Origin: Neocallimastix sp. 'constans'
Lineage: Eukaryota
Length of the DNA: 64,000 bases
NCBI GenBank assembly: GCA_050613775.1
Contig: JBODTK010000115.1
Coordinates: 1 to 64,000 of the forward strand
Direction: 5' to 3'
Made by a program: the position numbers and the translations under genes. Below, piece after piece: positions 19,613 to 55,167 of the stretch. The notes under the pieces were generated by a model that was not told the origin of the DNA, made no database searches, and saw only the letters and a list, made by a program, of their open reading frames with translations. Position 1 is the first letter of the stretch. The number at the start of each line of letters is the position of its first letter.

Positions 19613-21017
19613 TGATACGGGCTGGGGTTGAAACACTAAGATATTCAAAACAAAAAAATAAATATTAACACATAACTATAAAAACAAATTTGGAAACAAG
19701 AAAAAAATTAAATTTTAAAATATTCGTTATTTAAATTTAAAATTAAAATTATTTGTTCCAAGTATTAAAAAGAAAGAAATTTATTCTTCTTTTTATACTT
19801 TTATTTTAATACATTTTATTTATTATTAATATATTCTTTATAAAAAAAACTATTATAACTATTTTATTTTAATTTTTAACTATTATTTTAAATTATTTTT
19901 TTAAAAAAAAAATAACATTTATTAAATTAAAATATAAAAAATTAATTTAGAGATTGTATCACGAAGGGCATTCCGGGCGGTAGCTTCTTCTTGATATTGT
20001 TTTTCAGAGAGAGAATTATACAGAATTGATATTTTCTGTATTTTAGATCATTTTTTATTATTGAAATTCTGTATTTTAGTTCATTTTTATTTTTAATAAA
20101 GATTTAATTTATTTTTGATTTTTGATTTATTTTTAGTTTATTTCAAAGGTTTAGAAAATATTATACAGAAACTTATAATTCTGTATTTTATATCAAATAT
20201 TTATTGAAATAGGTTTTTATTATTCTTAATATAAAAGTAAGAATTAATAATGATTTAAATATTATATAATTTTTAATAAGAATAATTTATTGAAATAGGT
20301 TTTTATTATTCTTAATATAAAAGTAAGAATTAATAATGATTTAAATATTATATAATTTTTAATAAGAATAATTTATTGAAATAGGTTTTTATTATTCTTA
20401 ATATAAAAGTAAGAATTAATAATGATTTAAATATTATATAATTTTTAATAAGAATATTTAATAATAATTTTTATTATATTTAATATTAATAAAAGAAATT
20501 TATAAGAATATTTAATAATAATTTTTATTATATTTAATATTAATAAAAGAAATTTATAAGAATATTTAATAATAATTTTTATTATATTTAATATTAATAA
20601 AAGAAATTTATAAGAATATTTAATAATAATTTTTATTATATTTGATATTAATAAAGGAAATTTATAAGAATATTTAATAATAATTTTTATTATATTTGAT
20701 ATTAATAAAAGATTTTAATAAGAATATTTAATAATAATTTTTTATTATATTTAATATTAATAAAAGATTTTTATTAGAATATTTAATAATTTTTATTATA
20801 TTTAATATTAATAAAAGAAATTTATAAGAATATTTAATAATAATTTTTATTATATTTAATATTAATAAAAGAAATTTATAAGAATATTTAATAATAATTT
20901 TTATTATATTTGTTATTAATAAAAGATTTTAATAAGAATATTTAATAATAATTTTATTTTATTATTATTAAGAGTATTTAATAGGAAATACAAGGTATTT
21001 AGTGACACCCCGTATCA
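19613..21017 (-). mobile_element. Solo LTR, family L1, TSD TAAC
   Basis: Reverse complement of the element A LTR; TAAC at 19609-19612 and 21018-21021; extra 86-bp triplication at about 20201-20455. Confidence 0.92.
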
Positions 21018-21021
21018 TAAC

Positions 21022-21528
21022 TGATATGATATTTTTTTTAAACATCAATATCAATATTTATTTTATTTTATTTGGACGATAACAGTAGGGAATAATTGAC
21101 AAAATAATATATTCTAATATTATATAGAATAATACACACAATAATAATATTCACACTTTAATATTTAGTTTATTTATTTTATTTATTTATTATCATTCAT
21201 CAATAAAAATACATCATCAATATAAATAGTTGTTAACTAGTTAAAATATAATTAAATCATTCAATAAAATATAATTAATTACTAAAATCTCTCATATTAT
21301 TAATGTAAACTAAATATAAAACTACACTAAACTATACTAATAAACATGTTTATAGGTTAAATTATTAATAAAGCTAAATTAATATTAATAAAAGAACCAT
21401 TCTTTAAACTATTATTATTTACTAACTATATATACTATTATTAAATTATTATTAACCAATAAGATTTTATCAAATAATTCCTAACCTAAGTTTCACTAAA
21501 TTATGGTATTTATGGTGGTACCGTATCA
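21022..21528. mobile_element. Solo LTR, family L3, TSD TAAC
   Basis: TGATATG...CCGTATCA termini; TAAC on both sides. Confidence 0.75.
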
Positions 21529-21533
21529 TAACG

Positions 21534-22489
21534 TGTAATAATCATACTAAGATCTAATACTAAATATGATTATTAACTTCAACTTAATGACTAATTCATT
21601 AAGTTGAGAAATAAAATAAAAAAAAAAATTTTACCTAAAAAAGAGTTTATTATAAAATTAATTATAATAACAACACAAAAACCAAAGGAAGAAATATTTG
21701 TATAAAGTTAAAGTTGGTTTTAAAAAATATGTTTTTGAATAAAATATTTTATTAATTTATAAAAATTTAGAATGTAATATTGTTATCATTATAACTATCT
21801 TTTATATAATAATAACTTTTGATTTCTTAAAGAGAAATCAAGAGCCCTTTTTATATTTTTTTTAATGAATTAAGGTTAAATAAAAAGTTTTTCTAATCTT
21901 AAAAATTATCTTATCTAGAAAAAGATTAGAAGAAAAAACTAGATAAGTTTTTTGATCGATATTCTATTCATATCGATCATCGTATATATTAAGTAAAACC
22001 AAATATATTATTTTATATTTGGATAAAACCTTAATATATCGATTTTCTAAATTTTAATTTAGATCATCAAATAAAAGGAAAAATAAATAATAACCGGAAT
22101 GATCTAAATTATTCTATTTTTATAAATATTATTTTTGAAATCTAATCTAAACATATTAACATAAACTATCTTTAAAAAATACAGAAACTTATTAATTGTT
22201 CTTTTAAATGTACAATGTACAAAATAAATAAAACTAATGTTTACATTAACTTAATTAAATGAATAACTAAATAAAATTAATAATATTAATAAAAGTATAT
22301 ATAATAATTATTTAAATAAATTTTTTAATATTATTTTAGTGTATGAATAATTATATTTTTAATAAATTTGATTATAGTATTTCAATGTATGAATTAATTA
22401 AAATTTAAATAAATTTGTAATTATTATCAATAATTATAAAGACTAAGAAATAGTAATTATTTATTAATAAATAATTATTATTTCTAACA
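21534..22489 (-). mobile_element. Solo LTR S1 (element D-like group), TSD TAACG
   Basis: TGTAATA...TCTAACA; TAACG at 21529-21533 and 22490-22494; shares the structured module with the D LTRs. Confidence 0.82.
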
Positions 22490-22495
22490 TAACGA

Positions 22496-23461
22496 TGGTA
22501 GACTCGGGGTTAACACGTATAAATTTAAAATCAAGCAGGGGGGGGACGGGTATTACCCTGCTTTGATTTTAAATAAAAAAAAAATTTCTTTTTATTAAAA
22601 TTATTTATTAATATTAAATTTTATTTTTTTTTAAAGTACAAATATTTAATTTTTAAGAAATATTTACAATATTTATATTTTTTTATGAATTTAAAGTATA
22701 ATTAGTTGTTTATAATTTAAGTAATTTTATAGAATTATTGAATTAATTTTATATCAATAATTCATTTTTGTTTTAATTTTTATAAATATAATAATATAAT
22801 ATTCAAATATAATTTAATTAAAAATAATTATAAAATAAATATATAGAAAATAGTTTTTACTATTTTCTTTGATATTTTTAAGTTAAATAAATTGTTTTTA
22901 AAGATTAATATAATAAATTTAATAATCTTTAATTATTTTAAATAATACTTGTAATTATTTTCAAAATAAAATAAAATTTTTATAATATTTAATTAATAAA
23001 TTTGATAATATTTAAATAATAAATTTTTATAATAATTAATAATTTTTAATAATAATTTTTAATAATAAATTTAATTAATAATCTTAATAATTTTATAATA
23101 ATATTTAATAGTTATAATAAATAAATTTTTATAATAATATTTAATAATTTTAATAATTTTATAATATTAATAGTTTATAATAATTTTTATAATAATATTT
23201 AATTAATAATTTTAATAATTTAGTATCTTAAAAGTATAATTTTAATATTTACAATTGTATTTTAATATATACATAGATTTAATAATATACCAATAAAGTA
23301 ATTAATTAAAATTGATTTACATTATTTACAAATTAAAATTAATTTATATCAAAATAAATTAAAATTTATTATTAAGTTTAGGTTATCAAGAATTTAGGAA
23401 AGTACAATTTAGTAAAGAATTATTAATAATAAAATAAAGGTTATTAATTCATTCTTTACCA
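22496..23461. mobile_element. Solo LTR, family L2 (inverted relative to the 17434 copy), non-matching flanks ACGA/ATTT
   Basis: TGGTAGACTCGGGG...CTTTACCA; reverse complement of 17434-18448. Confidence 0.85.
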
Positions 23462-23465
23462 ATTT

Positions 23466-24295
23466 TGTTAAGGTTTTAGAGAATTAAATAAAAATAAAGT
23501 AAAGAAACACAAATTTTATTTATTTATTTATTATTTTATTTATTTATTTTATTAATTGATTTTATTCGATTTGATTTTATGGTTTTTAAAAATTGGTAGC
23601 AAAATTTACAACTATTTATACTTTTTTTTTCAAGGTATAAAAGTTGTTCTTGCCACTAAATTACATTTTATTATTATTTTTTTTTATATAAAAACTATTA
23701 AATTTAAATTGATTTTTATAATCAATTATATAAAATTTAATTATAACAATATAAATAAAATACATTTATAATATTAATAAAATTTTTTTTTTTTTTTTTT
23801 TTTTTAATAATCTATCTAAAATATTACTAATAAGAATTTATTTAATTGGCTATAATTTTTATTACAATCTGTTAAAATATTCAAATAAAAATAAAAATAC
23901 TATTCTAATATAAAGGTTTTTAATAAAATAAAATATTTTTCAATATAAAATAAAACATTTCGATATAAAATTTTATAATAAAAGTTAAAATATAATATAT
24001 AAATTTTTAATTATCAATATATAAAAATATTATTAATACAAATTTTCATTATTAATATAAAAACAAAAAAAATAAGATTTATTATTAATATTGCTAATAT
24101 AAGCTTTAAATATATAAAAATGTTACTATTAATAAAGATTTAATATAAAAATATAAAGTTTAATATAATTTTGATTTAATTTTTGATCTTTGGATTTAAA
24201 AATTTATTAAAGTACAAAAATAATAATGTACAATAATGTATTAGAAATAAATCGTAGATTTAATTAAGAATGCATTATTTAGTATATTCTTATCA
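23466..24295. mobile_element. Solo LTR, family L4, TSD ATTT
   Basis: TGTTAAGG...TCTTATCA; inverted near-identical copy at 26988-27816. Confidence 0.85.
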
Positions 24296-24298
24296 ATT

Positions 24299-26002
24299 TG
24301 TAATAGCTATACTAAAACTAAAATTAATTAATATAACTATTATCTACAATTTTAATATTATTTTTACATAATATTAAAATTGGGAAAATAAAAATTAAAA
24401 AATAAAAATTATACTTAAATTATGCCGAGTTTATTATAAGTAAATATAATAAACAATAACCAAGCTACAGTAGAATAGTAGTTGTAAATATTTTTAAAAT
24501 AATAAAAAAAAGCTTTTATGATTAATAATAGTTTTTGATATATCTATAAAAAATTTATTTTATTTGTTATTATTTATTATATTTTCTTAAAATAATAACT
24601 CTTGATTTCTCAAAGAGAATTCAAGAGTCCTATTTATATTTTTTTTTTAAAATCAATCGGTTAAATAAATTATTTTCTAATCTTAACAAAAAATCTATTT
24701 AGGAAAAGATTAGAAGAAAAATCTAAATAGTTTTTCGATCAATATTCTAATCATATTGATCATCATATAATTAAAGAAAACCTATTTGTTAGGAAAAACA
24801 TTAATTACCGATTTTCTAATTTAATTATTAAAATATTAAATATTGATAGGAAAAAAAAAGATTTTTTTTTTTTTTTTTCATTTAAAAAATAAAGATTAAA
24901 TAATATGATAGATTAGATACATTTATAGTTTATAATACATTATAAAATACATAATTCATTTTAATTAAAATAACTAATATTTTTTATGGTAAAATATTAA
25001 ATACAAATTTACATAATTTTTTGTAAAAATTCTATTTAAATGAATAATAATAATATGTAAATAAATTTTATATTATTTATATAAATGTATAAATTATAAT
25101 ATGTAAATAAATTTAGATCAATATATGAAAATATAACTATTAAATAAATTTATAAGTTAAAATCAATGAATATATTAATTATTATTTAAATAAATATTTT
25201 TTAAAAATAATTATTATTTTATAAATAATTATAAATTATTAATTATTTTTCATTAATTATATGTTAAAATTAAGATATAAAATAGTTTTATGATTAATAA
25301 TGTTACTAGGTTAATATGTTGAATTATATATTAATAATCCAACAATAATTAATTAATAATAATATAATTAAAATAATATAAGATAAATAGTTAAGTTATT
25401 TAAACACTTAATATCTAAGAATATTTTAAATAATAATTTCTTTGAAGGATTTATGAAAATATTTATTTATTGAATTATTAGTATATAATTATTGTAAATA
25501 CAATAACCTTACAAAGAAAATAAAAGATAGATTTTTACATCTTTCTTTTATACTTTGTAAGTTACATAATAATACTATTTAATTATAAGATAATAATAAT
25601 ATAGTAAAATGAATATTAATAAAATATTAAAATAATAGCAATATCGATATGTTTAAAATATTTAATATAATTTAATAAATTTAATTTGTATAATTAATTT
25701 GAATAATTAAAAATAGTAATTAATATATATGATATAAACATATATATAAACATAATATAAATAAATACATGTGACGTCATATGTAAATAATTGAAATTAT
25801 AAATATAAATCTTATTTATTAATATTTTCAGAATTATTAGGCCTAAGATAATTCTTTAAATATTAAATAAGAATTTATATTAATTATTAATTAAATGTAT
25901 ATTGAAATGTGAATAACTGAAATTGAGATTTCAATTCAGTTATAATTTCAACATTATAAGAAATATTAATTATTCATTATTGAATAATTATGATTTCTTA
26001 CA
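24299..26002 (-). mobile_element. Solo LTR S2 (D-like group; long, may contain a further insertion), TSD CAATT
   Basis: TGTAATAG...TTCTTACA; CAATT at 24294-24298 and 26003-26007; structured module at about 24595-24812. Confidence 0.72.
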
Positions 26003-26007
26003 CAATT

Positions 26008-26981
26008 TGTAATAATTTAATTATAAAATGTAATTAAATTATTAATCATTAATATTAGCTCTAACTGCTAATATTAAGGATTAGAAAAGAATCATACTTA
26101 CCTATGATTCAAATCTAATTACTTGGAGTTTATTATAGCAAATATAATAAACGAAACACTAAACTCAGAAAGAGAGCCGGTTTATATTTTGTGAAATTCT
26201 TTTATTAAACAATTTATTTTTTATTAATATAAAAGTAATTAAAAATATTTATTTTAATATTATTGTTATTATTATTATTTATTATATTTGTTATAATAAT
26301 AACTCTTGATTTCTCAAAGAGAACTCAAGAGCCTTATTTATACTTTTTTGTCAAAATAAGGTTAAAATCAAAAGGGGTTCTAATCTTAACAATTCTCTTA
26401 TCTAGGAAAAGATTAGATAGAAAAACCTAGATAAGCTTTTGATCGATATTCTATCCATATCGACCATCGTATTAATTAAATAAAACCAATTACTTTATGG
26501 AAGTAATTGGAAAAACCTTAATTAACCGATTGGTTAATCTAATCTAATGATCGAAAATAAAAGAACAAAAATAAAAGATATTTCGATCATATAAATATGA
26601 ATTTACATATAAGGAAAACAATATATAAATAACATTAAATTATGTATTAAGCAAAATATAAGATACATTATAAAATACAGAATACATTATACAATATAGA
26701 GTAATGTTTTAGTTACATAGTTTAACTAAATTACTAAACTAATAAATTTAATATCTAAATGAATAATTAAATAAATTATTATTATTATTTAAATGTATAA
26801 AATCTATTTATCTAAATAATTTTCTAATACTAAATTAAATAAATATTTAATATAATATTAAAAATAAAATATTAATTATAATTAAGTGTACGAAAGTAAT
26901 ATGATCTAAATAAAGTTATATTATTATAACTTAACTAAGAAAATATAATTATTTTGTTAAAAATAATTATAGATTCTTACA
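26008..26981 (-). mobile_element. Solo LTR S3 (D-like group), TSD CAATT
   Basis: TGTAATAA...TTCTTACA; CAATT at 26003-26007 and 26982-26986. Confidence 0.85.
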
Positions 26982-26987
26982 CAATTT

Positions 26988-27816
26988 TGATAAGAATGTA
27001 CTAAATAATGAATTCTTAATTAAATCTACGATTTATTTCTAATACATTATGTGTACATTATTATTTTTGTACTTTAATAAATTTTTAAATTCAAAGATTA
27101 AAAATTAAATTCAAAATTATATTAAACTTTATATTTTTATATTAAATCTTATATTAATAGTAATATTTTTATATATTTAAAACTTATATTAACAATATTA
27201 ATAATAAATCTTATTTTTTTTATTTTTATATTAATAATGAAAATTTGTATTAATAATATTTTTATATATTGATAATTAAAAATTTATATATTATATTTTA
27301 ACTTTTATTATAAAATTTTATATCGAAATGTTTTATTTTATATTGACAAATATTTTATTTTATTAAAAACCTTTATATTAGAATAGTATTTTTATTTTTA
27401 TTTGAATATTTTAACAGATTGTAATAAAAATTATAGCCAATTAAATAAATTCTTATTAGTAATATTTTAGATAGATTATAAAATAAAAAAAAAAAAAAAA
27501 AAAAAGGTTTTATTAATATTATAAATGTATTTTATTTATATTGTTATAATTAAATTTTATATAATTGATTATAAAAATCAATTTAAATTTAATAGTTTTT
27601 ATATATAAAAAGAAAATAATAATAAAATGTAATTTAGTGGCAAGAACAACTTTTATACCTCGAAAAAAAAAGTATAAATAGTTGTAAATTTTGCTACCAA
27701 TTTTTAAGAATCATCAAAAAAATTAATTAATAAAATAAATAAATAAAATAATAAATAAATAAATAAAATTTGTGTTTCTTTACTTTATTTTTATTTAATT
27801 CTCTAAAACCTTAACA
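26988..27816. mobile_element. Solo LTR, family L4 (inverted copy), TSD ATTT
   Basis: TGATAAGA...CCTTAACA; reverse complement of 23466-24295. Confidence 0.85.
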
Positions 27817-27819
27817 ATT

Positions 27820-28860
27820 TGATACGGGCTGGGGTTGAAACACTAAGATATTCAAGCAAAAAAAATAAATATTAACACATAACTATAAAAATAAATTTGG
27901 AAACAAAAAAAAAAAATTATTTTAAAATATTCTTTATTTAAATTTAAAATTAAAATTATGTGTTCCAAGTATTAAAAAGAAAGAAATTTATTCTTCTTTT
28001 TATACTTTTATTTTAATACATTTTATTTATTATTAATATATTCTTTATAAAAAAACTATTATAACTATTTTATTTTAATTTTTAACTATTATTTTAAATT
28101 ATTTTTTTAAAAAAAAAATAACATTTATTAAATTAAAATATAAAAAATTAATTTAGAGATTGTATCACGAAGGGCATTCCGGGCGGTAGTTTCTTCTTGA
28201 TATTGTTTTTCAGAGAGAGAATTATACAGAATTGATATTTTCTGTATTTTAGTTCATTTTTATTTTTAATAAAGATTTAATTTATTTTTGATTTTTGATT
28301 TATTTTTAGTTTACTTCAAAGGTTTAGAAAATATTATACAGAAACTTATAATTCTGTATTTTATATCAAATATTTATTGAAATAGGTTTTTATTATTTTT
28401 AATATAAAAATAAGAATTAATAATGATTTAAATATTATATAATTTTTAATAAGAATATTTAATAATAATTTTTATTATATTTAATATTAATAAAAGATTT
28501 TTATTAGAATATTTAATAATAATTTTTATTATATTTGATATTAATAAAAGATTTTAATAAGAATATTTAATAATAATTTTTTATTATATTTAATATTAAT
28601 AAAAGATTTTAATAAGAATATTTAATAATAATTTTTTATTATATTTAATATTAATAAAAGATTTTAATAAGAATATTTAATAATAATTTTTATTATATTT
28701 AATATTAATAAAAGAAATTTATAAGAATATTTAATAATAATTTTTATTATATTTGTTATTAATAAAAGATTTTAATAAGAATATTTAATAATAATTTTAT
28801 TTTATTATTATTAAGAGTATTTAATAAGAAATACAAGGTATTTAGTGACACCCCGTATCA
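27820..28860 (-). mobile_element. Solo LTR, family L1, TSD AATT
   Basis: TGATACGGG...CCCGTATCA; AATT at 27816-27819 and 28861-28864. Confidence 0.92.
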
Positions 28861-28863
28861 AAT

Positions 28864-29722
28864 TGTAAGAATCTATAATTATTTGTTAGCAAATAATTAT
28901 ATTTTCTTAGTTAAGTTATTATAACTATAACTTTATTTAATTACATATAATATTTATTAAATTTATTTAATTTAATTTTAAATATTCATTAATTTAACAA
29001 AATTTATTTAATTAATTTTAAATAATATATTTACAATATGTTAAATTCTCTACTGTAACTAATGTATTCTGTATTGTATTGTATTCTGTATTTTATAATG
29101 TATTGTGTATTTTATTAACTATTTAATTTTATATTTTTAATATAAGGATAAATTATATGATCGAAATATCTTTTATTATTTTATTCTTTTATTTTCGATC
29201 ATTAAATTAGATTGGAAAATCGGTTAATTAAGATTTTTTCCAATTACTTTTTAGAAGTAATCGGTTTTACTTAATTAATGCGATGATCGATATGGATAGA
29301 ATATCGATCGAAAACTTATCTAGGTTTTTCTATCTAATCTTTTCCTAGATAAGAGATTTGTTAAGATTAGAAAACCCTTTCTTATTTAACCTTATTTTAA
29401 TAAAAAAATATAAATAAGGCTCTTGAGTTCTCTTTGAGAAATCAAGAGTTATTATTATATAAAAATATAGTTATAATAGTAACAATTTTATATTTTTAAC
29501 CTTAATAAATTAATAATATATTTTATTCAAAAAACATATTTTAAAATTAAATTTATACAAACAATTCTTCTCTTACTTCTCGTGTTATTATTATATCAAT
29601 TTTATAATAAACTCTAAAGGTAAAACATATTTATTTTATTTTATTTTCTCAACTTAATGAATTAGTCGTTAAGTTGTAGTCAATAATTCTATTTTGAGTT
29701 AGTTCTTAATAGAATTATTACA
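28864..29722 (+). mobile_element. Solo LTR S4 (D-like group, opposite orientation), TSD CAAAT
   Basis: TGTAAGAA...TTATTACA; CAAAT at 28859-28863 and 29723-29727; module reads as the reverse complement of S3. Confidence 0.85.
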
Positions 29723-29727
29723 CAAAT

Positions 29728-30201
29728 TGTAAGAAATTACTTATAAAATTAATTATAAATAATTTCTTAACTACAAATTAACATTAATTATTACTAATTA
29801 ACATTAATTTGAGAAAATAAAATTAAATATAATTAAATAAATATAAAATAATATAAATAAATAATTATACTTAACTTAAATATAAGATAGAGTTTATTAT
29901 AGAAAGTTTATAATAAACAATAACACAAAAGGAATAAAAGACACAAATATTTATAAAATATGTTTTATTAAAAGGGTTTTGTTTTATTAATTAATTATTT
30001 TATTTGAATTATTATTTATTATAAAAATTCTAAAATAATAACTCTTGATTTCTCGAAGAGAACTCAAGAGAATCAAATATATATAAATTAATAATTAAAT
30101 ATTATTGGTTAAAATAAATACAATAATTTAATGTATTAAATTAATGTATTAAATAAGAAAGATAGATAAATTTTTTAATAAATTTATCTAAGTTTCTTAC
30201 A
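29728..30201 (-). mobile_element. Short, internally deleted solo LTR S5 (D-like group), TSD CAAAT
   Basis: TGTAAGAA...TTCTTACA; keeps the ATAATAACTCTTGATTTCTC hairpin but lacks the ENE/pseudoknot part. Confidence 0.75.
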
Positions 30202-31013
30202 CAAATGTAATAATTTCTATAAATTATAGAAATTATTATTTATAATTAATATTAACTAAACTATTAAGATTAATTAAAAAATAAAATAAAAATTAAAATA
30301 AAAATAAGAATTTAATACTTATCTTTAAAATTAGAGTTTATTATAAGAAAATATAATAGACCTTAAATGAAAAGAGAAATAAAATAAAATATGTTTTTAT
30401 TAAAAGAACTTTATTAATTTATTTTATTATTAAATATTTTATTATTATTTTTTTTTGACAAATTTTAAAATAACTATTTTATATTAATTGAAATATTAAT
30501 GTCTTTTATTGTTATTATATTTTTCTTAAAATAATAACTCTTGATTTTCTAAAGACGAAAATCAACAGCTATTTATATTTTTTACAAAAGTAAATGGATT
30601 TTTCTAATCTTAACAATGATTCTTTCCAGAAAAAGATTAGAAGAAAAAACTGGAAAGATTTTTGATCAATAATCTATACTTATTGATCATCGTGTTATTA
30701 AATAAAACCAATTATAATTAATCGGGAAAACTTTAATAACCGATTTTAATAACTAAAAGAATTAAAAAGAAAAAAGGATAAAAAAGAGAAGGATAAAATA
30801 ATGCAGAAATTTTATTGAATACATTTTTTCTATGAAATAATACAGAAGTTATATTAAATACATTTTTTCATATAACAATTAATACATTAATTGGTATAAT
30901 TGATTTTAAATGAAATAAATTTTTAATGAATAATAATTATGAAATAATTATTAATTAATAAGAAATAGAAATAAATTATAAAAATTTATATCAATTTCTT
31001 ACATTGCACCTCC

Positions 31014-34000
31014 TTATGATGCATCCACTAGTTCCGGATTTCTTTTTGTATAAGGCTCCAACTGGGAAACATGAAATACCGGATGTAAATGTAGATTTTC
31101 TGGAAAATCTAAACGGTAATTCATTCTCTCCCTCACTTCCAAAACTCTAAACGGCCCAAGATATTGTGAAGAAAGTTTTTTGGATGGCTCATTTGTAAAA
31201 TAATATCTTTTTAGCCATACAAAATCATTTACTTTGAATGAAGGTCCTGTAGCTTTCTTCGAATCTCCAAACTTCTTAAAATTTTCTTTAGCTTTTTGTA
31301 AGTGTCTCTTCAATGCTTCGAAATGTGAGGACCAATCCCTGGTTAAAGCGGAAGCATTATTCTTTAGAAGAACAGGAGGCGACTCTATAGTACAGGAAGG
31401 ATTAAAGCCATAATTAACAAAGAATGGTAATTTACCTATGGACTTATGCAGGGAGTTGTTATAGGCCATTTCACATAAAGGAACATAATAACACCATTCA
31501 TTTTGGGACGTTGAACAATAACATCGGAGATACTGCTCAATTACTGAATTTGCACGCTCAATTTGTCCATTGGATTGTTGATGGTGAGCTGTGGCAAGTC
31601 TTGGATTAGCGTTAATAGCAGAGCACAACGAAGTCCAAAATTCTGATGAAAATTGAGAACCATGGTCCGAAACAATTATTTTAGGGAATCCATGGTAGCG
31701 AAAAACATTGAATAGAAGCATTTTGGCCGTCAGATCAGCGGAGGGAACATCAGAACAAGGAACAAGGTGAATCATTTTGGTCAGATGGTCAGCTACAACC
31801 ATTAAACATGTACAATCTTGCGAGCTGGGAAGTGAAGTGATAAAGTCAACGCTAATTATTTCCCAAGGTCTACTGGGAACCAGTAAAGGTTGTATTTTAC
31901 CATATGGCTTGTGTCTTCGGAGCTTATTTCTTCCACAAACATCGCATGAGGATATGTAATTCTTGATATCTTTTTTCATATTTGGCCACCAATAATTTCT
32001 TCTTAATTTTTCAAAAGTTTTATCTACTCCTTGGTGACCATTAGTTGGACCATCATGATATATTTTCAATACCTTGGCCTTGAGTGAAGAAGGGACAATT
32101 ATTCGGTTCTGAAAATGCAGAACCCCTTCGACGATGGTAAAAAGCGAACTTTTTACTTCATTTGACCTTGTTTTAATTTTATTGAGTGTATCCTTACAGT
32201 ATGTGTCAGACTTCTGAGCTTCAATTAAGGCTTTTAAGTTGTCAGAAGGTGCACAACAAAATATCTCTTCATCTAACAGAGGATAACCTTCATTGGTCGA
32301 ATCCTTGTTGACGTAATCGGGGCGTCTTGACAAAGAGTCAGGTTTACCACTCTTAATACCGGAGCGAAATGAAATCCTATAAGTGAACTTTGAGAGAAAG
32401 AGACTCCGTCTAATTTGTCTTTGGTTTAATTTTTGAGGTTGCTTAAAATATAACAGATTTCTGTGATCTGTGACTACTTGTACTGGAAATTTAGCACCTT
32501 CTAGGTGATGGCGCCAGGTTTCAAAAGCTACGATTATTGCAAGTAATTCCTTGTCATAAATAGTATAATTGATTTCAGCAGAAGACAAGGACCTAGAGTA
32601 GAAAGCAACCGGATGGAGTTTATTGTCTTTGTTACTAATTTGAGATAAAACACAACCAACAGCGAAATTGCTAGCGTCAGTTTCTACAAAGAATTCTTTC
32701 TCTGGATCTGGATAAACTAGGATTTCTTCCGTCGTAAAAGCTTCTTTGAGTTTGTTGAAAGCATTGTCTGCCCTAACATCCCAAATGAAGGAAGAGTTCT
32801 TCTTCAAAAGCCGACGGAGAGGTTCAATGATCTCGGCAAAATTATTTATAAACTTCCTATAGAAGTTACAAAGTCCTAGAAACCCTTGGAGTTCTTTAAT
32901 ATTTTTTGGGATAGGCCAGTCGATAACAGCTTTAACCTTATTCCTGTCCAATGAAAGACCATTTACAGACACCACAAACCCTAAAAAAATAGTTTCTTTA
33001 ACGTGAAAATCACATTTTTCCAATTTCACGTAAAGACCATTTTTAATTAGAAGCGACAATATTTTACGAACATGCTGAATATGTTCGTCCAAACTTTTTG
33101 AATAAATTATTATATCATCCAAGTATACTTGAACAAATATGCCAATTGCATCAGATAAAACATCCTGGATGAATCTTTGAAACACCGAGGGGGCATTTCT
33201 TAGGCCAAAGGGCATTACTAGATATTCAAATTGGCCTAAAGGTGTTCTAAAAGCAGTTAAATATTTATGACCTTCTTTAACGCGGACAAGGTTATACGCA
33301 GATCGAAGGTCCAAACGAGTGAATATTACTGCCCCCTTAAACGATTCAATCAAGTCAACCAATCTTGGGATAGGGTAGCTATTCCTAATAGTAATAGAAT
33401 TTAATTTCCTATAATCAACGCAGAGTCGTAAGCTTCCATCTTGTTTTTTTACAAACAGGACAGGGGCACCAGCAGGTGATTTTGACTTCCTTATAAACCC
33501 CTTATCTAAATTTTCTTTTAAATAATTTTTAAGAGCTTCCATTTCGACAATCGTAAGAGAGTACACAGGTCCATAATATAATTGACCACCAGGGACTAGG
33601 TCAATTGATATATCATATTCACGATGTGGAGGCAATTTGTCTGCCTCTTTCTTTTCAAATACAATTTTCAAATCTTGATAGTATATGTTGATAATTTCAT
33701 CTTTATCAGTTTCATTTACTAAAGCGGCGCAAATATCTATATCAAAAAGTTCGTCACCAGATATTGAGTATGTTTCTGTTTTATCTTTTGATACATTGTT
33801 GTTTTCGTTGTTTGACAAAATTGCGGCAGTAACATCTTTAGAGTGAAAAATGAATTTATTCCCTTTTGCTGAAGGGCAGTGATTTCCGCAGTGGTTCTCT
33901 AAAAAGTAAATCTTATTATTTTTGAAGTCTACGTATGGCATATGAATACTCAACCAATCTCTTCCAAGGATGGCTGATATTCCCTGAAGTTGTAAGGTAG

Positions 34001-34343
34001 CTACGTAGAATTCATAGCTTTCCTTGTGGTCCATGAAGGCAAGGCCTAATTTCTTCGTTACTTGTCTTATATTCATACTTTTGTTGTTCGGTAACTGAAT
34101 GTTCAATGGTGAAGACAAGGTAGATAATTGAATTCTGTTGGCGTTTACAAAGTCTCTACAGATGTAACTTCTTGCAAAACCAGAATCAATAAGGACGTTT
34201 ATTTTCATTTTCTTTCCATTATTATTTAATATAAATGTAGTGGTCATTGAATTTGAGGTGTTTGGTGTATAGTTAGCCGAAAGGATGCTTTCTTTGTTTT
34301 GATTTTTTCTGAATTTCTTGTGTACTTTGTTGTTCTTGAATTC
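31014..34343 (-). CDS. pol: Pol of element D (PR, RT, RNase H, IN; no chromodomain)
   Basis: VLIDSG, LPPHREYD, SKSPAGAPVLFVKK, YLDD, ETDAS, WEIISVDF, SDHGSQF, GPF, HPVFHVSQL. The frame is open back to the gag stop. Confidence 0.93.
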   Translation of the reverse strand, partial: EFKNNKVHKKFRKNQNKESILSANYTPNTSNSMTTTFILNNNGKKMKINVLIDSGFARSYICRDFVNANRIQLSTLSSPLNIQLPNNKSMNIRQVTKKLGLAFMDHKESYEFYVATLQLQGISAILGRDWLSIHMPYVDFKNNKIYFLENHCGNHCPSAKGNKFIFHSKDVTAAILSNNENNNVSKDKTETYSISGDELFDIDICAALVNETDKDEIINIYYQDLKIVFEKKEADKLPPHREYDISIDLVPGGQLYYGPVYSLTIVEMEALKNYLKENLDKGFIRKSKSPAGAPVLFVKKQDGSLRLCVDYRKLNSITIRNSYPIPRLVDLIESFKGAVIFTRLDLRSAYNLVRVKEGHKYLTAFRTPLGQFEYLVMPFGLRNAPSVFQRFIQDVLSDAIGIFVQVYLDDIIIYSKSLDEHIQHVRKILSLLIKNGLYVKLEKCDFHVKETIFLGFVVSVNGLSLDRNKVKAVIDWPIPKNIKELQGFLGLCNFYRKFINNFAEIIEPLRRLLKKNSSFIWDVRADNAFNKLKEAFTTEEILVYPDPEKEFFVETDASNFAVGCVLSQISNKDNKLHPVAFYSRSLSSAEINYTIYDKELLAIIVAFETWRHHLEGAKFPVQVVTDHRNLLYFKQPQKLNQRQIRRSLFLSKFTYRISFRSGIKSGKPDSLSRRPDYVNKDSTNEGYPLLDEEIFCCAPSDNLKALIEAQKSDTYCKDTLNKIKTRSNEVKSSLFTIVEGVLHFQNRIIVPSSLKAKVLKIYHDGPTNGHQGVDKTFEKLRRNYWWPNMKKDIKNYISSCDVCGRNKLRRHKPYGKIQPLLVPSRPWEIISVDFITSLPSSQDCTCLMVVADHLTKMIHLVPCSDVPSADLTAKMLLFNVFRYHGFPKIIVSDHGSQFSSEFWTSLCSAINANPRLATAHHQQSNGQIERANSVIEQYLRCYCSTSQNEWCYYVPLCEMAYNNSLHKSIGKLPFFVNYGFNPSCTIESPPVLLKNNASALTRDWSSHFEALKRHLQKAKENFKKFGDSKKATGPSFKVNDFVWLKRYYFTNEPSKKLSSQYLGPFRVLEVRERMNYRLDFPENLHLHPVFHVSQLEPYTKRNPELVDAS

Positions 34344-35009
34344 CTATTTTGGATGCTCATCTCTTTTTCTTTTTTGCGACTTGTTGGTTGACTTATTTGT
34401 TTTGGCTAGGTTGTTAATATAACATTTTTTATCGATGCTGATGATTGAATTTGTTGCTTCAAAAAGGGTCTTTGGTCTTTCGATTTTATCGAACTCCAGA
34501 CGAACCTCCTCAAGAAGGCCTCTCCGGATAAGGTCAATAAAAACATCGTCGTTCCAACCAATTCTTGACGCTAATCTTCTGAATTCAATAGTGAAGAAAG
34601 CTGCCTTTCCGAGGTGAAGCTGTTTAAGGTTCAAAAGTTCTTCAATTAAAACAAACCTTTGTTCCTTTGTATCTCCAAAATTTTCTAACAATAACCTCTT
34701 AAATTCCTCATAGGTGAGAGAATTAAGTGTTCCATCAGCCTTGAGAGATAATCCCCATTTTTTAGCTGGTCCATAAAGTTTGCTGATAACGAAAGCGTTT
34801 CTAAAGTCGTCACTTGGGAACGAATTGGCATGTTCATCAAAGAACAATTCACACTGTTCCGTTAGTTCGTTTAGATTAAGCTTTGTGTTGTCTTCATTGC
34901 GGGCCAACACACCGTTAGGTGAAAAAAATGTTGGAATAAATTCGGTAATTGCAGAAATTAATTTTGACGCTTCAGCTTCCTTAGTAGCTTCCATACTGGT
35001 TGAATTCAT
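34344..35009 (-). CDS. gag: Gag of element D (retrotransposon capsid)
   Basis: FVISKLYGPAKKW...F...L...F and LLNLKQ...FTIEFRRLASRIGWND match the gypsy Gag pattern; same frame as pol. Confidence 0.88.
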   Translation of the reverse strand: MNSTSMEATKEAEASKLISAITEFIPTFFSPNGVLARNEDNTKLNLNELTEQCELFFDEHANSFPSDDFRNAFVISKLYGPAKKWGLSLKADGTLNSLTYEEFKRLLLENFGDTKEQRFVLIEELLNLKQLHLGKAAFFTIEFRRLASRIGWNDDVFIDLIRRGLLEEVRLEFDKIERPKTLFEATNSIISIDKKCYINNLAKTNKSTNKSQKRKRDEHPK

Positions 35010-35879
35010 TAAAATACTAAATAGACTTTTTTAATATAATAGAACTTTAATATATCTTTAATATATCTTTAATATATCTTTAAAATATTTTTAAAATATC
35101 TTTAAAATATCTTTAAAATATCTTTAAAATATCCTTTAAAATATGTATATAATTGTTAAATATAAATTATTTATATTAATAATAGAAATTTATAACTTCG
35201 GAGTCTAGAAGAACACTTCCAATATTTTAACAAAAATGAGCATTTCCGACCAATTTTCCAGAAGCCCCTGAGTTTGAGTGATAGTATGCGCTATACGACC
35301 AGCTTGCCTATTAATGGTGTCTTGTTGCCGCGCGCACCACGATTGCAATCTGTTTACCATTAAAACAGACCAGTTCAGAGCCTCCCGCACAGCTTGTCGT
35401 GAAGGGTAAACTTAATCCGGAAATCACTCAGTTACAAGACTCAGGCTACTCCTGCTTCTAAAGTTCGTACTAATTCTCATTATATTGTTTATTTTTGGAA
35501 ATAACTTCTAGAATCCTTTATTATAAATTAATATTTTTAAATATAAAAAATTTAATTATTAGTATAATTTATAGTATATGATTTACGTATTTATTATTAT
35601 TGTTATTGTTATAATTATTTTATTTAATAATATAATTATATTATCTACTAGTATATACAATTTAATTTATATAATTATAATTTACTATTAAAATTTTTTT
35701 TTTTTTTTTTTTTTTTATTATATTATTTATTTATCTGATTGGAAAAAATAATAATTTTTTTTTTTTTTTTTTTTTCTTTAATATTATTTATTTATTTATT
35801 TGATCGGATAAAATAATTTTTTTTTTTTTTTTTTTACTTTTGTACTACAATATCATAATACAATTAACTAATTACCTAG

Positions 35880-35891
35880 AAGAGTTATTAT
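35880..35891 (-). promoter_or_regulatory. Self-priming primer-binding site of element D
   Basis: Minus-strand ATAATAACTCTT abuts the 5' LTR and is complementary to AAGAGTTATTAT at 36225-36214 in the LTR, about 30 nt downstream of TATAAATA. No TGG tRNA-type PBS. Confidence 0.78.
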
Positions 35892-36703
35892 TGTAATAAT
35901 TTCTATAAATTATAGAAATTATTATTTATAATTAATATTAACTAAACTATTAAGATTAATTAAAAAATAAAATAAAAATTAAAATAAAAATAAGAATTTA
36001 ATACTTATCTTTAAAATTAGAGTTTATTATAAGAAAATATAATAGACCTTAAATGAAAAGAGAAATAAAATAAAATATGTTTTTATTAAAAGAACTTTAT
36101 TAATTTATTTTATTATTAAATATTTTATTATTTTTTTTTGACAAATTTTAAAATAACTATTTTATATTAATTGAAATATTAATGTCTTTTATTGTTATTA
36201 TATTTTTCTTAAAATAATAACTCTTGATTTTCTAAAGACGAAAATCAACAGCTATTTATATTTTTTACAAAAGTAAATGGATTTTTCTAATCTTAACAAT
36301 GATTCTTTCCAGAAAAAGATTAGAAGAAAAAACTGGAAAGATTTTTGATCAATAATCTATACTTATTGATCATCGTGTTATTAAATAAAACCAATTATAA
36401 TTAATCGGGAAAACTTTAATAACCGATTTTAATAACTAAAAGAATTAAAAAGAAAAAAGGATAAAAAAGAGAAGGATAAAATAATGCAGAAATTTTATTG
36501 AATACATTTTTTCTATGAAATAATACAGAAGTTATATTAAATACATTTTTTCATATAACAATTAATACATTAATTGGTATAATTGTTTTTAAATGAAATA
36601 AATTTTTAATGAATAATAATTATGAAATAATTATTAATTAATAAGAAATAGAAATAAATTATAAAAATTTATATCAATTTCTTACACAAATTTATTTGAT
36701 AAT

Positions 36704-36750
36704 AGCAGCGTAGCGCAGTGGAAGCGTATGATCGAAATATACCGCTGCTA
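36704..36750 (+). pseudogene. Initiator tRNA-Met-like gene lacking the anticodon arm and variable loop
   Basis: Acceptor AGCAGCG/CGCTGCT+A (A1-U72), D arm GCGC-AGTGGAA-GCGT, T arm GTATG-ATCGAAA-TATAC with the initiator-type T loop; T6 run at 36764-36769; only 47 nt. Confidence 0.88.
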
Positions 36751-36759
36751 GGAAATAAC

Positions 36760-36910
36760 TTTGTTTTTTGAATTATTATATAATTTGATACAATGAATAG
36801 TTGAAATTATGGAAATTATAAAAACAATTAAAATAAAATTTATTGTTTTTATAATTTCCATAATTTCAACTATTCATTGTATCAAATTATATAATAATTC
36901 AAAAAACAAA
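36760..36910. repeat. Perfect inverted repeat, 69-bp arms, 13-nt spacer
   Basis: 36760-36828 is the exact reverse complement of 36842-36910. Confidence 0.92.
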
Positions 36911-38681
36911 TTAAAAATAAAATTATTTAATTAAAAAAAAAGTCTTAAAAAACATGTTTATATAATAAAATATTAATTAAGTAATTATTTCAAAATATAT
37001 AATAATTATTTATAGTTACATGTTTATTATTTATTACTTAAATAATAAATACTTTTTTGATTATTTTCTATTTAACTATTTTTTTTTTTTATGTTTATTT
37101 TTTTTTTTTTTATTTTTATTCTTATTTTTTTTTGCCGCTAAATTAATAAAAAAAAAACGAAAATGTATATAATATAATTTAATATATTTTTAATTAATTT
37201 AATATAATTCTTGCCGTTAACCATTAAAAGAAGTTTAATTATTATTATTTTATTTTATTTTTTTTTTATAAAATTTTTAATAAATAATAAAATAATCAAG
37301 AATAAAGAGAAAAAAAATTATAAAAAATAATATATATGAAAATAAATATAATATATATAAATAAATATAATATGGATTAATATAAATAATATTTATAAAT
37401 AATAAAATTTTTTTTGTATTATTTTCTTTATTTGTTTTTTGGACGGATGATATGAAAAGAAGAAAAAAAAATTATTTAAATTAAAAATAAATTAAATATA
37501 AATTAAATATAAATTAAATTAAAAATAGAATAAAAAATGAAATTGAAACTTTTATTAATTTCTTAATAATAGTACGTATAATAACAACAAAATACCAGAA
37601 GATACAGTAAAAAATAACAAATATAGATATATAAATTTTATAAATTATAAATTTGATATAATAATAAATGTTATATTCTTATATCATCAATAATTAATCG
37701 AATAATAAATAAATAATAAATAAATATAATATAATTCATTTGCAATAATTATAATTAATTCTATTTATTATAATATAATAATAATATAAATATAATAATA
37801 ATATAAATATAAAATAACATTAAGTATAATATAAATGTATAATGTAAATGTATAATAATGTAATGTATAGTAATAATAATAATAATAATAAATAAAGTTT
37901 TAGTACTTCAAATGAAAAACCATAAAAGGAAAAAAAGATTTTTTACATTGACCAAAAATTTATAAATTTGGTTTTTAATTTAAATAAATAAAATAATATG
38001 TGAATAAATAAATAAATAGTATGATTTATAAATAAATAAATAAATAGATAAATAAATAAATAGTATGATTAATAAAATAAATAAATAAATAATTTAATTA
38101 TTTAATTATTAAAAAAAAAAAAAAAAAGAAATAAAAGTGGTACAAAATTTATTTATATTAAATTTTTTTTTTCTTTTTTTAATATTTTATTTTATTATAT
38201 TTTTTTCAATTAAAAGAAAAAACAGTACAACTATCATAAATACAATAAAGAAAAAAAAAAAAAATTTTTGTTTTTAAAAATTAAATTAAATAAATTAAAT
38301 ATTTAATGTATATAAATAATTATCATTTTTCTTCATTTTAACAATTTTCCTTTATTTTCTTTTTTTTTTTTATTTTATTTTATATTTAAATTTAAATTTT
38401 GTAAAATAGTAATAAAAATAGGTTATAAATAATTAAATAAATAAATAAAAAGAATTATTTGTATATACATTATTTATATTTGTATATTTTTATTATAATT
38501 TTTATTAATATATAATAACAATTTGTATAATTCAACCAAATTACATTTTTATTATTACTATAATTTTTTTTTATAACATTATAAATTCTAATATTGAGAT
38601 AAAAAGATATTTAGATAAATAAATAAATAAATAAATAAATAACAGTTAAATAATATTTTAAAAAATTTTTAAATTTAAAAA

Positions 38682-40256
38682 ATGAAATTATTACAAATAA
38701 TTCCATTCTTATTTTCAGTGACATCCACTACACTTGCTCAAAGTTTCTGTAGTGCCACTGGTCACTCAGGTCAAAGTATAAATGTTAATGGTAATAAACT
38801 TGGTAAAATAGGTAATGTTAATTATCAGTTATGGGCTGATAGTGGTAATAATAGAGCTACTTTCTATTCTGATGGTTCTTTCTCTTGTGGTTTCGAGAGA
38901 GCTGGAGATTATTTATGTCGTACTGGTCTTTCCTTTGAGGGTGCAAGAACTCCATCACAAATTGGTCGTATTAAGGCTGATTTTAAAGTGAAAAAAGAAA
39001 GTGTCAGTAATGTTGGTTATTCCTACATTGGTATTTATGGTTGGACTAAAAATCCTCGTGTTGAATGGTATATCGTGGATGACTGGCTTTCAAAGGAAAG
39101 ACCAGGGGATTGGATTGGTAATCAAAAAAAGGGTGACTTTACCATTGATGGTGCTGAATATACTGTTTATAGAAATCAACGTGCAGATCTCACTCAATAT
39201 TTCAGTCTTCGTAAGGTGGGTCGTGATTGTGGTACCATCGATATTTCAGCTCACTTTGATCAATGGGAAAAACTTGGTATGACAATGGGTACCCTGGATG
39301 AAGCTAAAGTTTTAGCTGAAATTGGAAATGGTAACGGTGGGGTCACCGGTACCGTCGATTTCCCTTACGCTAAAGTTTATCTTGGTAATGCTAGTGAAAG
39401 TAGTAGTCCTTCTACTTCTACTACTACTACTCCAGCACAATCTGTTGGTCAAGATCAAACTCAAGGTCAAACTCAAGGTCAAACACAACCACCTGCTCAA
39501 AATGCTCCAACTCAAAACCAACCACCTACTCAAGCACCACCAACTCAAAATGCTCCAACTCAAAACCAACCACCTACTCAAGCTCCATCAACTCAAAATG
39601 TTCCAGTTCAGGCTCCACCCACTCAAGCCCCACCACCACAAAATAATAATGGTGCTGGTAATCCATGGGGTAGTGGTGGCGGTAATCCATTTGATAATGC
39701 AGGCGGAAATCCATGGGGTAACGCTGGAGGTAATCCATTTGGTAACGGAGGAGGTAATCCATTTGGTAACGGAGGAGGTAATCCATTTGGTAACGGAGGT
39801 GGTAACCCATTTGGTAACGGAGGAGGTAATCCATTTGGTAACGGAGGTGGTAACCCATTTGGTAACGGAGGTGGTAACCCATTTGGTAATGGAGGTGGTA
39901 ATCCATCAAATAATGCTGCTCCCGGTGGTGGTAATCCATGGTCTATGTGGGGAAATGGAGGTAATGCACCAGGTTGGCCTACACCAAATAATGCAGCTCC
40001 ATTAAATCCAGGTGGTGCTCCAGGTGCTCCAGGGGGTATCCCTGGTTTTGGTCAAGGTATGGGTCCAGCTCCAATTAAATTTGCTACATCATCAGCGGTT
40101 AACTCTTCCACCAATAATAAATCCGATGGTAAATCCAATGGTAAATGTGCAGCAACTTGGGCTCAATGCGGTGGTGAAGGATTTAAGGGACCAAATTGTT
40201 GTACCAGTGGTAATTGTAAAATCATTAATAAATATTACCATCAATGTAAACCATAA
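38682..40256 (+). CDS. Secreted GH11 xylanase-like protein with low-complexity linker and C-terminal CBM1
   Basis: Signal peptide; GH11 motifs SYIGIYGW, VEWYIVD, GTIDISAHFDQW, EAKVLAE; Q/P/T and GGGNPFGN linker; CBM1 WAQCGGEGFKG...C...C..INKYYHQC. Intronless. Confidence 0.93.
   Translation: MKLLQIIPFLFSVTSTTLAQSFCSATGHSGQSINVNGNKLGKIGNVNYQLWADSGNNRATFYSDGSFSCGFERAGDYLCRTGLSFEGARTPSQIGRIKADFKVKKESVSNVGYSYIGIYGWTKNPRVEWYIVDDWLSKERPGDWIGNQKKGDFTIDGAEYTVYRNQRADLTQYFSLRKVGRDCGTIDISAHFDQWEKLGMTMGTLDEAKVLAEIGNGNGGVTGTVDFPYAKVYLGNASESSSPSTSTTTTPAQSVGQDQTQGQTQGQTQPPAQNAPTQNQPPTQAPPTQNAPTQNQPPTQAPSTQNVPVQAPPTQAPPPQNNNGAGNPWGSGGGNPFDNAGGNPWGNAGGNPFGNGGGNPFGNGGGNPFGNGGGNPFGNGGGNPFGNGGGNPFGNGGGNPFGNGGGNPSNNAAPGGGNPWSMWGNGGNAPGWPTPNNAAPLNPGGAPGAPGGIPGFGQGMGPAPIKFATSSAVNSSTNNKSDGKSNGKCAATWAQCGGEGFKGPNCCTSGNCKIINKYYHQCKP
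39661..39940 (+). repeat. 24-bp coding tandem repeat (GGGNPFGN)n
   Basis: GGTAACGGAGGWGGTAAYCCATTT units; about 7 perfect units plus degenerate NPW/NPF flanks. Confidence 0.92.
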
Positions 40257-45982: not shown

Positions 45983-47061
45983 AATTGTTTTATTTTATTT
46001 CTTTTTTATTTTATATATATTGTTTTTTAACTTTTAATTTTATACTTGTATAATATATTTTCTTCATTTAATAATTATTTTTGCAATAAATTTATTTTTA
46101 TTATTTTTTTTTTAATTTTATTTATGATGAAATTATTTATATATACTTATATATTTTTATTAAAATTATTAAATTAATTTTTAATAATATATTAAAATTA
46201 AAAAAAAAAAAAATTAGTTTGTAAAATTAATATATTAATTTTTATTTTTATTAATATGAATTTAAATAATAAATTATAGTTAACTTTTAAATTTTATTTT
46301 AATTTATTCATTTATTATTACTTTTTTTTTATTTATTTTATTTTAATTTTCGATTTTATTTATTTATTTATTTTATTTTTTTTTGTTCTTTTTTTTTTCA
46401 AAAATTTTAAATAATAAGGAATTCTTCCATATTTATATATGAATTTCAATGTAAAATATTTAAAATATAAAAACTAAATATTGAAATATAATAAAATATA
46501 ATAAAATATAATAAAATATAATGAAATATAATGAAATATAATATTAATTAATTTTATATATAAATATATTTATTAATATATTTTATTATATTCTTTTTTT
46601 CATTTTTTTTCCAATTTTTTAATATATAATAGAATATTCTATTTACTTCAGTATTATTTATTGACTATTGTTCATAATATATTAAATATATTGGATTATA
46701 TACTAATATATGTAGTTTAGTAATAAAATATATTAAATATATAAAATTTTTAATTAAAATTTATTTTATTAATAATTAAAATTTTTTTTTTATTTTTCCT
46801 TTTTTCTTTTTTTTTATTTAAATTTTATTAATATAAATTTATTATTTATAGAATATAAATAAATGGTTAACAAAGATTTAAAGTACAGAGAAAATTACAT
46901 GTATTTATATTTAATTGTGGCTTGTTATAGATACATATTAATTTATATTTAATTTATAATTACAATGTATTTAATATAATTTAATTTAATATTTTATTAA
47001 ACCTAAGCTAGAATATAACTTTATATTAATAAAGTTAACACTCCCCCTCAAATTAAATTTT

Positions 47062-52451: not shown

Positions 52452-52779
52452 TTTCGGTTGTTTGAGACTCTTAATCTATTAAAGATTGTTTAATTAATTA
52501 ATATAAATTTATTATTTATAAAATATAAATAAATGGTTAACAAAGATTTAAAGTTCAGAGAAAATTACATGTATTTATATTTAATTGGGGCTTGTTATAG
52601 ATACATATTAATTTATATTTAATTTATAATTACAATGTATTTAATATAATTTAATTTAATATTTTATTAAACCTAAGCTAGAATATAACTTTATATTAAT
52701 AAAGTTAACATTTTTCTTTTTTTGTTAAAACCTAAATTATTGTTGAAGAGATGACTGTCAATGTAATTTTATTTATTAT

Positions 52780-55118: not shown

Positions 55119-55167
<49 letters not shown>

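What the first reader, a model, noticed from the sequence alone, without database searches (positions are those of the whole stretch)
36704..36750. Anticodon-less initiator tRNA: clean 25-nt deletion that may have switched the hotspot off
Seen: intact acceptor stem, D arm and initiator-type T loop (ATCGAAA), but the D-stem end GCGT overlaps the T-stem start GTATG. The gene is 47 nt instead of the usual 72, which fits a deletion across a (C)GT microhomology. This collapses the A-box to B-box spacing. Inference: either the deletion killed TFIIIC binding after D inserted and ended the stack, or the mini-gene still acts as a non-decoding landing pad. Standard tRNA scanners could miss it.
Basis: partly seen in the sequence, partly recalled or inferred. 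Interest (0 to 1): 0.7.

Follow-up and report, generated by a model that had tools for sequence, protein, structure and literature searches.

The report
Broken initiator tRNA beside retrotransposon stack
In what is likely an anaerobic gut fungus, a copy of the initiator tRNA gene lacks its 25-base anticodon arm and carries a changed promoter base, and it sits 17 bases from a pile of at least eight successive retrotransposon insertions; it is most likely an ordinary dead gene that used to attract those insertions.

Summary
36704-36750 matches an intact 72-nt tRNA-iMet from a metagenome contig (L002) at 46 of 47 bases, with one 25-nt gap bounded by CGT repeats that removes the anticodon hairpin and variable loop. 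The A-to-B-box gap falls from 32 to 7 nt, and the T arm is predicted not to fold. The hotspot is real: eight successive LTR insertions, ending with intact gypsy element D, peel off through nested 4-5-bp target duplications, all 14-17 nt upstream of +1, like Ty3, Tj1 and DGLT-A. Best reading: a slippage-made tRNA pseudogene, probably no longer a target. 'Switched off after D' is plausible but untested: D is so young (1 substitution between its LTRs) that no later insertion is uninformative, and that youth makes a separate later point mutation unlikely. The junction could not be checked in reads, and no genome was held. Ordinary as a tRNA relic; the stack is the more interesting part.

The parts
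36704..36750 (+). 47-nt tRNA-iMet relic: acceptor stem, D arm, T arm, discriminator A; anticodon arm and variable loop missing
   Evidence: 46 of 47 identical to intact L002 tRNA-Met
36711..36721 (+). A box, fits TRGYNNARNNG
   Evidence: sequence; consensus from PMC7954030 passages
36725..36727 (+). deletion junction: the single remaining CGT of two CGT repeats 25 nt apart in the intact gene
   Evidence: four equivalent alignments; microhomology 3
36729..36739 (+). B box (tRNA positions 52-62) with T at position 61 (36738) where both intact comparators have C; 7 nt from the A box
36764..36769 (+). T6 run, candidate Pol III terminator; no encoded CCA before it
36760..36910 (.). perfect inverted repeat, 69-bp arms, 13-nt loop, starting 10 nt after the relic; likely a template-switch inverted duplication
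   Evidence: a contig over the loop (36799-36871, 0 differences) in 4 of 4 runs laid
36687..36703 (+). 17-nt spacer holding the reused target site; CAAA at 36687-36690 is D's target duplication (other copy 30202-30205)
30206..36686 (-). element D: full-length Ty3/gypsy, LTRs 30206-31003 and 35892-36686 (99.5%), gag and pol in one frame with a single TAG between, no Chromo match, 12-nt self-priming-type PBS
23466..30201 (.). seven abutting solo LTRs (e-k), each with a 4-5-bp target duplication in an unbroken chain leading to the 17-nt spacer
19613..23461 (.). four further abutting solo LTRs (a-d); d ends 14 nt from +1 on reconstruction but its left flank does not match; a-c form a separate TAAC(G) chain

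Best explanation
The element is a tRNA-iMet gene copy that lacks its anticodon hairpin and variable loop and has T at B-box position 61; it likely lost the 25 nt by replication or repair slippage between two CGT repeats, is likely a dead pseudogene, and was likely the Pol III gene that drew the adjacent LTR stack. Shown: the gap, its CGT ends, the T61, the 7-nt A-B gap, and eight nested insertions 14-17 nt upstream of +1 with D last. Inferred: while intact, the gene bound TFIIIC and loaded TFIIIB, and Ty3-like integrases inserted at its start site again and again, most copies then collapsing to solo LTRs. Inferred: the anticodon hairpin folded in single-stranded DNA and the polymerase skipped from one CGT to the other; the point change 11 nt away and the neighbouring 69-bp palindrome would fit one fragile, error-prone site. 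Inferred: tauA and tauB can no longer sit on the two boxes together and the B box is weakened, so TFIIIB loading and targeting are lost. The damage probably followed D (about 70:30), because D landed at the same 17-nt distance as the two insertions before it.
For: Alignment to intact L002 tRNA-Met: one 25-nt gap, one mismatch. Microhomology of 3 or more occurs at 29 of 672 possible 15-35-nt breakpoint pairs in that tRNA; the deleted part folds as a DNA hairpin (-4.2/-4.8 kcal/mol). T-stem pair probabilities 0.04-0.05 against 0.77-0.82 for the D stem. Human tauB makes base-specific contacts at B-box positions that map to 61 and 62, its DNA density starts 10 bp upstream of the box, and human tRNA genes space the boxes 30-67 bp (PMC11811891 passages; the mapping is mine); here that footprint would overlap the last 3 nt of the A box. 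Box A or B mutation prevents Ty3 insertion (PMC5911963). Target-duplication chain met for 8 of the 9 elements tested leftward before it breaks at d. In L002 a putative LTR end lies 15 nt upstream of the intact tRNA-iMet, with a gypsy RT further upstream. 0 of 2 metagenome matches had the short spacing. D's intact 1331-codon frame argues for an accurate assembly nearby.
Against: Clock: with 1 substitution between D's 795-nt LTRs, the chance of an independent substitution in 47 nt since D is about 0.03 (upper 95% bound 0.15), so C61T needs a clustered event, an earlier origin, LTR homogenisation, or is native to this species. C61 is known only from 2 comparators of other organisms. No read or contig evidence for the junction was obtained. 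No binding or transcription data. A tRNA relic (ZOD1) is still a Ty3 target in yeast. The TFIIIC geometry is taken from human and yeast, not from this lineage.
Confidence: 0.6

Rival explanations
1. The damage came before D and the relic still loads TFIIIB: a non-decoding landing pad like yeast ZOD1.
For: The A box is intact, the B-box core G53, T55, C56, G57 is kept, and a T6 run follows. The clock makes a separate post-D substitution unlikely (P about 0.03, up to 0.15). Ty3 inserts at the relic ZOD1 and needs factor loading, not full transcription (PMC5911963 passages).
Against: A-B gap of 7 nt against 30-67 bp in human tRNA genes, and loss of a contacted base. D sits at the same 17-nt distance as j and k, which suggests normal geometry when it landed. 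0 of 2 metagenome matches are short.
Confidence: 0.12
2. The deletion is an artefact of library preparation or assembly (polymerase skipping the anticodon hairpin), and the locus holds an intact gene.
For: In vitro slippage gives the same hairpin-plus-microhomology signature (established knowledge). The short form was seen in 0 of 2 metagenome matches.
Against: Neighbouring sequence looks accurate: D's long frame is unbroken, its LTRs are 99.5% alike, and the palindrome loop 50-120 nt away is matched with 0 differences in 4 of 4 runs. A second, separate change (T61) accompanies the gap.
Confidence: 0.12
3. The relic no longer attracts integrases but still binds tauB weakly or yields a short stable RNA (acceptor stem plus D arm) with some role, for example as a primer decoy.
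For: Acceptor and D stems are predicted to fold (pair probabilities 0.6-0.89); a terminator-like T6 follows.
Against: Folding is no better than shuffles (z -0.75). The T arm, needed for tRNA processing (established knowledge), is predicted unfolded. D's PBS is of the self-priming type, not iMet. No conservation seen.
Confidence: 0.1
4. It is a retroposed tRNA copy, a SINE head, or part of D (a primer-binding site).
For: It lies next to a retroelement, and reverse transcriptase can jump across hairpins (established knowledge).
Against: No CCA or poly-A after the discriminator; it lies outside D's LTR and target duplication; D's PBS is on the other side of the LTR and pairs with the LTR itself; one copy in the window; the stack shows that a functional gene stood here.
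Confidence: 0.03

Closest known systems
Eukaryotic initiator tRNA-Met gene (Pol III type 2 promoter)
   Same: A1:U72, A54/A60-type T loop (hallmarks recalled), A box, T run; 46 of 47 nt identical to the intact L002 gene
   Different: No anticodon arm or variable loop, T at 61, A-B gap 7 nt; cannot decode; missed by ARAGORN and Rfam
tRNA pseudogenes and relics, e.g. ZOD1 of S. cerevisiae
   Same: tRNA-derived, non-decoding, next to a Ty3-type target site
   Different: [quoted passage not shown]
tRNA-start-site-targeting Ty3/gypsy elements: Ty3, Tj1, DGLT-A, Tca8
   Same: [quoted passage not shown] D shares with Tj1 a stop between gag and pol and a self-priming-type PBS (PMC4600332 passages). 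Best PDB match of D pol is Ty3 Gag-Pol, E 2e-142
   Different: Host is likely a Neocallimastigomycota fungus, a group absent from that 2018 table; several LTR families in both orientations share one site; at least eight sequential insertions are preserved. Phylogenetic closeness to Tj1 was not tested
Armless mitochondrial tRNAs and acceptor-T minihelices (recalled)
   Same: Very short tRNA-like sequence with an intact acceptor stem
   Different: Armless tRNAs keep the anticodon arm and lose D/T arms; here the anticodon is what is lost, and the T arm is predicted not to fold

Membership tests
functional tRNA-iMet gene | 7-bp acceptor stem with A1:U72 | tested here: met
functional tRNA-iMet gene | CAU anticodon in a stem with three G-C pairs | tested here: not met
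   absent; present in L002
functional tRNA-iMet gene | T arm with G53-C61 and initiator-type loop | tested here: not met
   loop present, 61 is T, stem pair probability 0.04-0.05
active Pol III type 2 promoter | A box consensus | tested here: met
   36711-36721 fits TRGYNNARNNG
active Pol III type 2 promoter | B box with contacted bases, about 30 bp or more from the A box | tested here: not met
   gap 7 nt, C61T; no other B-box-like motif (1 mismatch allowed) in 36600-37200 on either strand
active Pol III type 2 promoter | TFIIIC/TFIIIB/Pol III occupancy or transcript | not testable with these tools
   no ChIP data; the RNA runs listed held at most 0.10 of the words of the stretch and none was laid
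tRNA pseudogene | clear homology to a tRNA gene with disabling lesions | tested here: met
tRNA pseudogene | lesion present in the organism's DNA and intact paralogues elsewhere in the genome | tested here: inconclusive
   no genome; contigs laid neither show nor exclude the junction
microhomology/slippage deletion | one copy of a short direct repeat left at the junction, hairpin between repeats | tested here: met
   CGT, 29 of 672 breakpoint pairs reach 3 or more; hairpin -4.2 kcal/mol; judged on a comparator from another organism
Pol III-start-site target of Ty3-like elements | [quoted passage not shown] | tested here: met
   8 elements at 14-17 nt
Pol III-start-site target of Ty3-like elements | integrase tethering to TFIIIB/TFIIIC | not testable with these tools
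   inferred from position only
tRNA-derived SINE or retrocopy | many copies, CCA or poly-A tail, own target duplication | tested here: not met
   one copy in the window, no tail; genome-wide count not possible

The most novel reading that the evidence does not exclude
A 47-nt anticodon-less mini-gene with A and B boxes only 7 nt apart still recruits TFIIIC/TFIIIB, and element D inserted at it after the damage: a minimal non-decoding landing pad that keeps soaking up retrotransposons in an anaerobic gut fungus.
Probability: 0.1. Interest if true: 0.65.

Novelty: new member of a known kind. Interest (0 to 1): 0.27.

Why it matters
As a tRNA relic it is ordinary. Its use is as a marker: because scanners miss it, the 17-kb LTR pile beside it would look untargeted, whereas it records at least eight ordered insertions at a Pol III start site. 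My searches showed no paper on tRNA-targeted retrotransposons in Neocallimastigomycota, and D looks intact, so it could serve as a safe-site integration tool in fungi that are hard to engineer (speculative). If strains differ at this locus, it is a natural experiment on whether losing A-B spacing ends targeting. If the mini-gene still loaded TFIIIB, it would revise the minimal promoter geometry for TFIIIC.

Tried and rejected
No genome held, so no paralogue comparison or copy count. Contigs of 4 runs laid on 36250-36900: no cover at 36734-36755 in 4 of 4. This is no finding: X1 also has almost no cover at 36756-36799 although it holds the palindrome loop, the tool filters records, and a short contig beside a very deep LTR is easily dropped. 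Depth over the tRNA 5' half (197-593) far exceeds that of the loop contig (12-28), hinting at many iMet 5' halves in these runs, but the tool states depth is no copy number, so I do not use it. Pattern scans: viral contigs 0; prokaryote genomes 0 and 1 chance bacterial match, L003, dropped. No D relatives in viral contigs. Rfam: 3 spurious miRNA matches on the palindrome, below gathering scores. Earlier findings: none. Rejected: PBS of D; removal as a GT-AG intron (the gap ends in CGT); rescue by an external B box; dating the shut-off from the stack: solo LTRs e and h differ at 17 of about 830 sites, which caps the mean interval between the last five insertions near 0.2-0.25% per site but gives no lower bound, while D's age is 0.06% (0.002-0.35%). 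Four paper ids typed from recall for A-B spacing and Ty3 profiling were not held, so those results are not cited. Searches with no hit.

Full report
Setting. The window is very AT-rich (GC 0.11-0.36 per 2 kb) and is mostly Ty3/gypsy and copia retroelements. One host gene at 38682-40256 is a GH11 xylanase with CBM1 whose best solved relative is 'CDBFV' (E 5e-106; recalled as a Neocallimastix xylanase). Of the 8 runs holding half or more of the words of 36690-38600, 6 are feces metagenomes and 2 an isolate label. I infer an anaerobic gut fungus. No genome is held.

The observation. The 47 nt at 36704-36750 read as described. Each half is unique in the window. ARAGORN reports 0 tRNAs and Rfam no tRNA match. 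A metagenome scan that allowed 1-30 nt between the D arm and T loop gave 2 loci, both with intact spacing, both called 72-nt tRNA-Met(CAT). L002 is an AT-rich contig with a gypsy RT 65-67% identical in DNA to RTs of the window, likely a related fungus. The element aligns to the L002 gene with a single 25-nt gap, placeable in four ways over CGT, and one mismatch. The gap removes the anticodon hairpin and variable loop. The mismatch is position 61: T here, C in both comparators.

How it arose. The deleted part lies between two CGT repeats and folds as a DNA hairpin; 29 of 672 possible 15-35-nt breakpoint pairs in that tRNA have microhomology of 3 or more. This is the signature of slipped misalignment across a hairpin, or of microhomology-mediated repair (established knowledge; the two cannot be told apart here). 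Ten nt downstream begins a perfect 69-bp inverted repeat with a 13-nt loop, whose right end is followed by a near copy of the loop, as template switching would leave. Its loop is matched by a contig with 0 differences in 4 of 4 runs laid, so it is real DNA. That it promoted the deletion is a guess.

What it can still do. As RNA: no anticodon; D and T stems compete for two bases; predicted pair probabilities are 0.77-0.82 for the D stem and 0.04-0.05 for the T stem; folding is no better than shuffles (z -0.75). As a promoter: the A box fits the consensus (PMC7954030 passages), but the gap to the B box is 7 nt instead of 32. In the human TFIIIC structure, boxes lie 30-67 bp apart, tauB covers DNA from 10 bp upstream of the B box, and it contacts template-strand bases 74 and 75, which by the paper's own numbering (69 = C56) are partners of positions 61 and 62 (PMC11811891 passages). 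Here that footprint would overlap the A box and the contact at 61 is lost. B-box quality sets promoter strength and tauA places TFIIIB at a fixed distance from the A box (PMC7528018 passages). No other B-box-like motif lies in 36600-37200. Box A or B mutation prevents Ty3 insertion (PMC5911963 passages). So loss of function is likely, not shown.

The hotspot. Element D spans 30206-36686 with TG..CA LTRs, a CAAA duplication, and its right end 17 nt before +1. It has one in-frame TAG between gag and pol and a 12-nt PBS complementary to its own LTR, both features of Tj1 (PMC4600332 passages); Pfam shows no Chromo match in its pol. Removing D and each solo LTR to its left in turn, 8 of the first 9 elements (D, k, j, i, h, g, f, e) have a 4-5-bp duplication that matches the rebuilt empty site, at 17, 17, 17, 15, 14, 16, 16 and 14 nt from +1; the chain breaks at the ninth (d), and a-c form a separate chain. 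Boundaries were chosen by eye from TG..CA ends; end-to-end matches of e with h and of d with the LTR at 17434-18448 support them. [quoted passage not shown] In L002 a putative LTR end lies 15 nt before the intact gene (no second LTR seen). The relic therefore marks a once-active Pol III gene, and D was the last arrival.

Order of events. For deletion after D: D landed at the same distance as j and k. Against: D's LTRs differ by 1 substitution and one 3-nt indel, so a separate later substitution in 47 nt has a chance of about 0.03 (upper bound 0.15). One clustered repair event, LTR homogenisation, or a native T61 would remove the conflict; an earlier lesion would favour the landing-pad reading, for which ZOD1 is a precedent. 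The lack of insertions after D is uninformative at this age. I put the order at about 70:30 for damage after D.

Limits. The junction was not confirmed in reads (see Tried and rejected), the comparators are from other organisms (n = 2), and nothing was measured on binding or expression.

Literature. Seen as passages: PMC6101501, PMC4600332, PMC11811891, PMC7528018, PMC7954030, PMC5911963 (also its section 11, whose table of tRNA-targeting elements lists yeasts and dictyostelids only). No supplements were read; supplementary figure S12 of PMC11811891 holds the spacing data and was not seen. Search listings only. Searches for a nuclear tRNA pseudogene lacking the anticodon and for tRNA-targeted elements in anaerobic fungi (0 papers; 1 paper, on a choanoflagellate; none of the 15 listed of 249 holds 'upstream of tRNA' or 'gypsy') showed no description; the library lacks most subscription papers.

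Verdict. A real-looking, well-defined tRNA-iMet relic, most likely a dead pseudogene made by slippage, at the foot of a Ty3-type insertion stack. New member of a known kind; interest 0.27. The landing-pad reading remains open at about 0.1.

Noticed in passing
window 19613-36686: Twelve abutting LTR elements from several families, in both orientations, separated by 2-6 nt; eight form a nested target-duplication chain giving their order. No paper on such targeting in anaerobic gut fungi turned up. More interesting than the relic itself.
   Followed up: yes
window 22490-23465: The chain breaks at LTR d: right flank belongs to this tRNA's target, left flank to a TAAC(G) chain. This would fit recombination between solo LTRs joining two stacks from different tRNA loci.
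   Followed up: partly
window 30206-36686: Element D looks intact: 1331 codons with one TAG-G stop between gag and pol, self-priming-type PBS, no Chromo match; Tj1-like in these features. The 12-nt self-priming motif also occurs (up to 1 mismatch) in 7 of the 11 solo LTRs a-k.
   Followed up: partly
window 36760-36910: Perfect 69-bp palindrome with 13-nt loop; loop present in 4 of 4 runs laid; gives spurious miRNA matches in Rfam.
   Followed up: partly
L002 3001-3157: tRNA-iMet followed after 1 nt by tRNA-Ser(GCT): a likely dicistronic gene, in the reverse order of the Ser-Met dimer recalled from S. pombe. The window's copy has no such partner.
   Followed up: no
L001 91-2699: Eleven different tRNA genes in 3 kb on both strands, including a eukaryote-type initiator; organism not determined.
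   Followed up: no
window 54239-61866: Second full-length gypsy element (LTRs 99.8% alike) with a CCA-ending tRNA-type PBS, and a copia element at about 46814-52710; no tRNA gene is called next to either.
   Followed up: partly
window 38682-40256: GH11 xylanase with a long Gly/Asn/Pro repeat linker and C-terminal CBM1, 1.9 kb downstream of the relic.
   Followed up: partly
window 11883-13250: Integrase remnant with a Chromo domain, unlike D.
   Followed up: no
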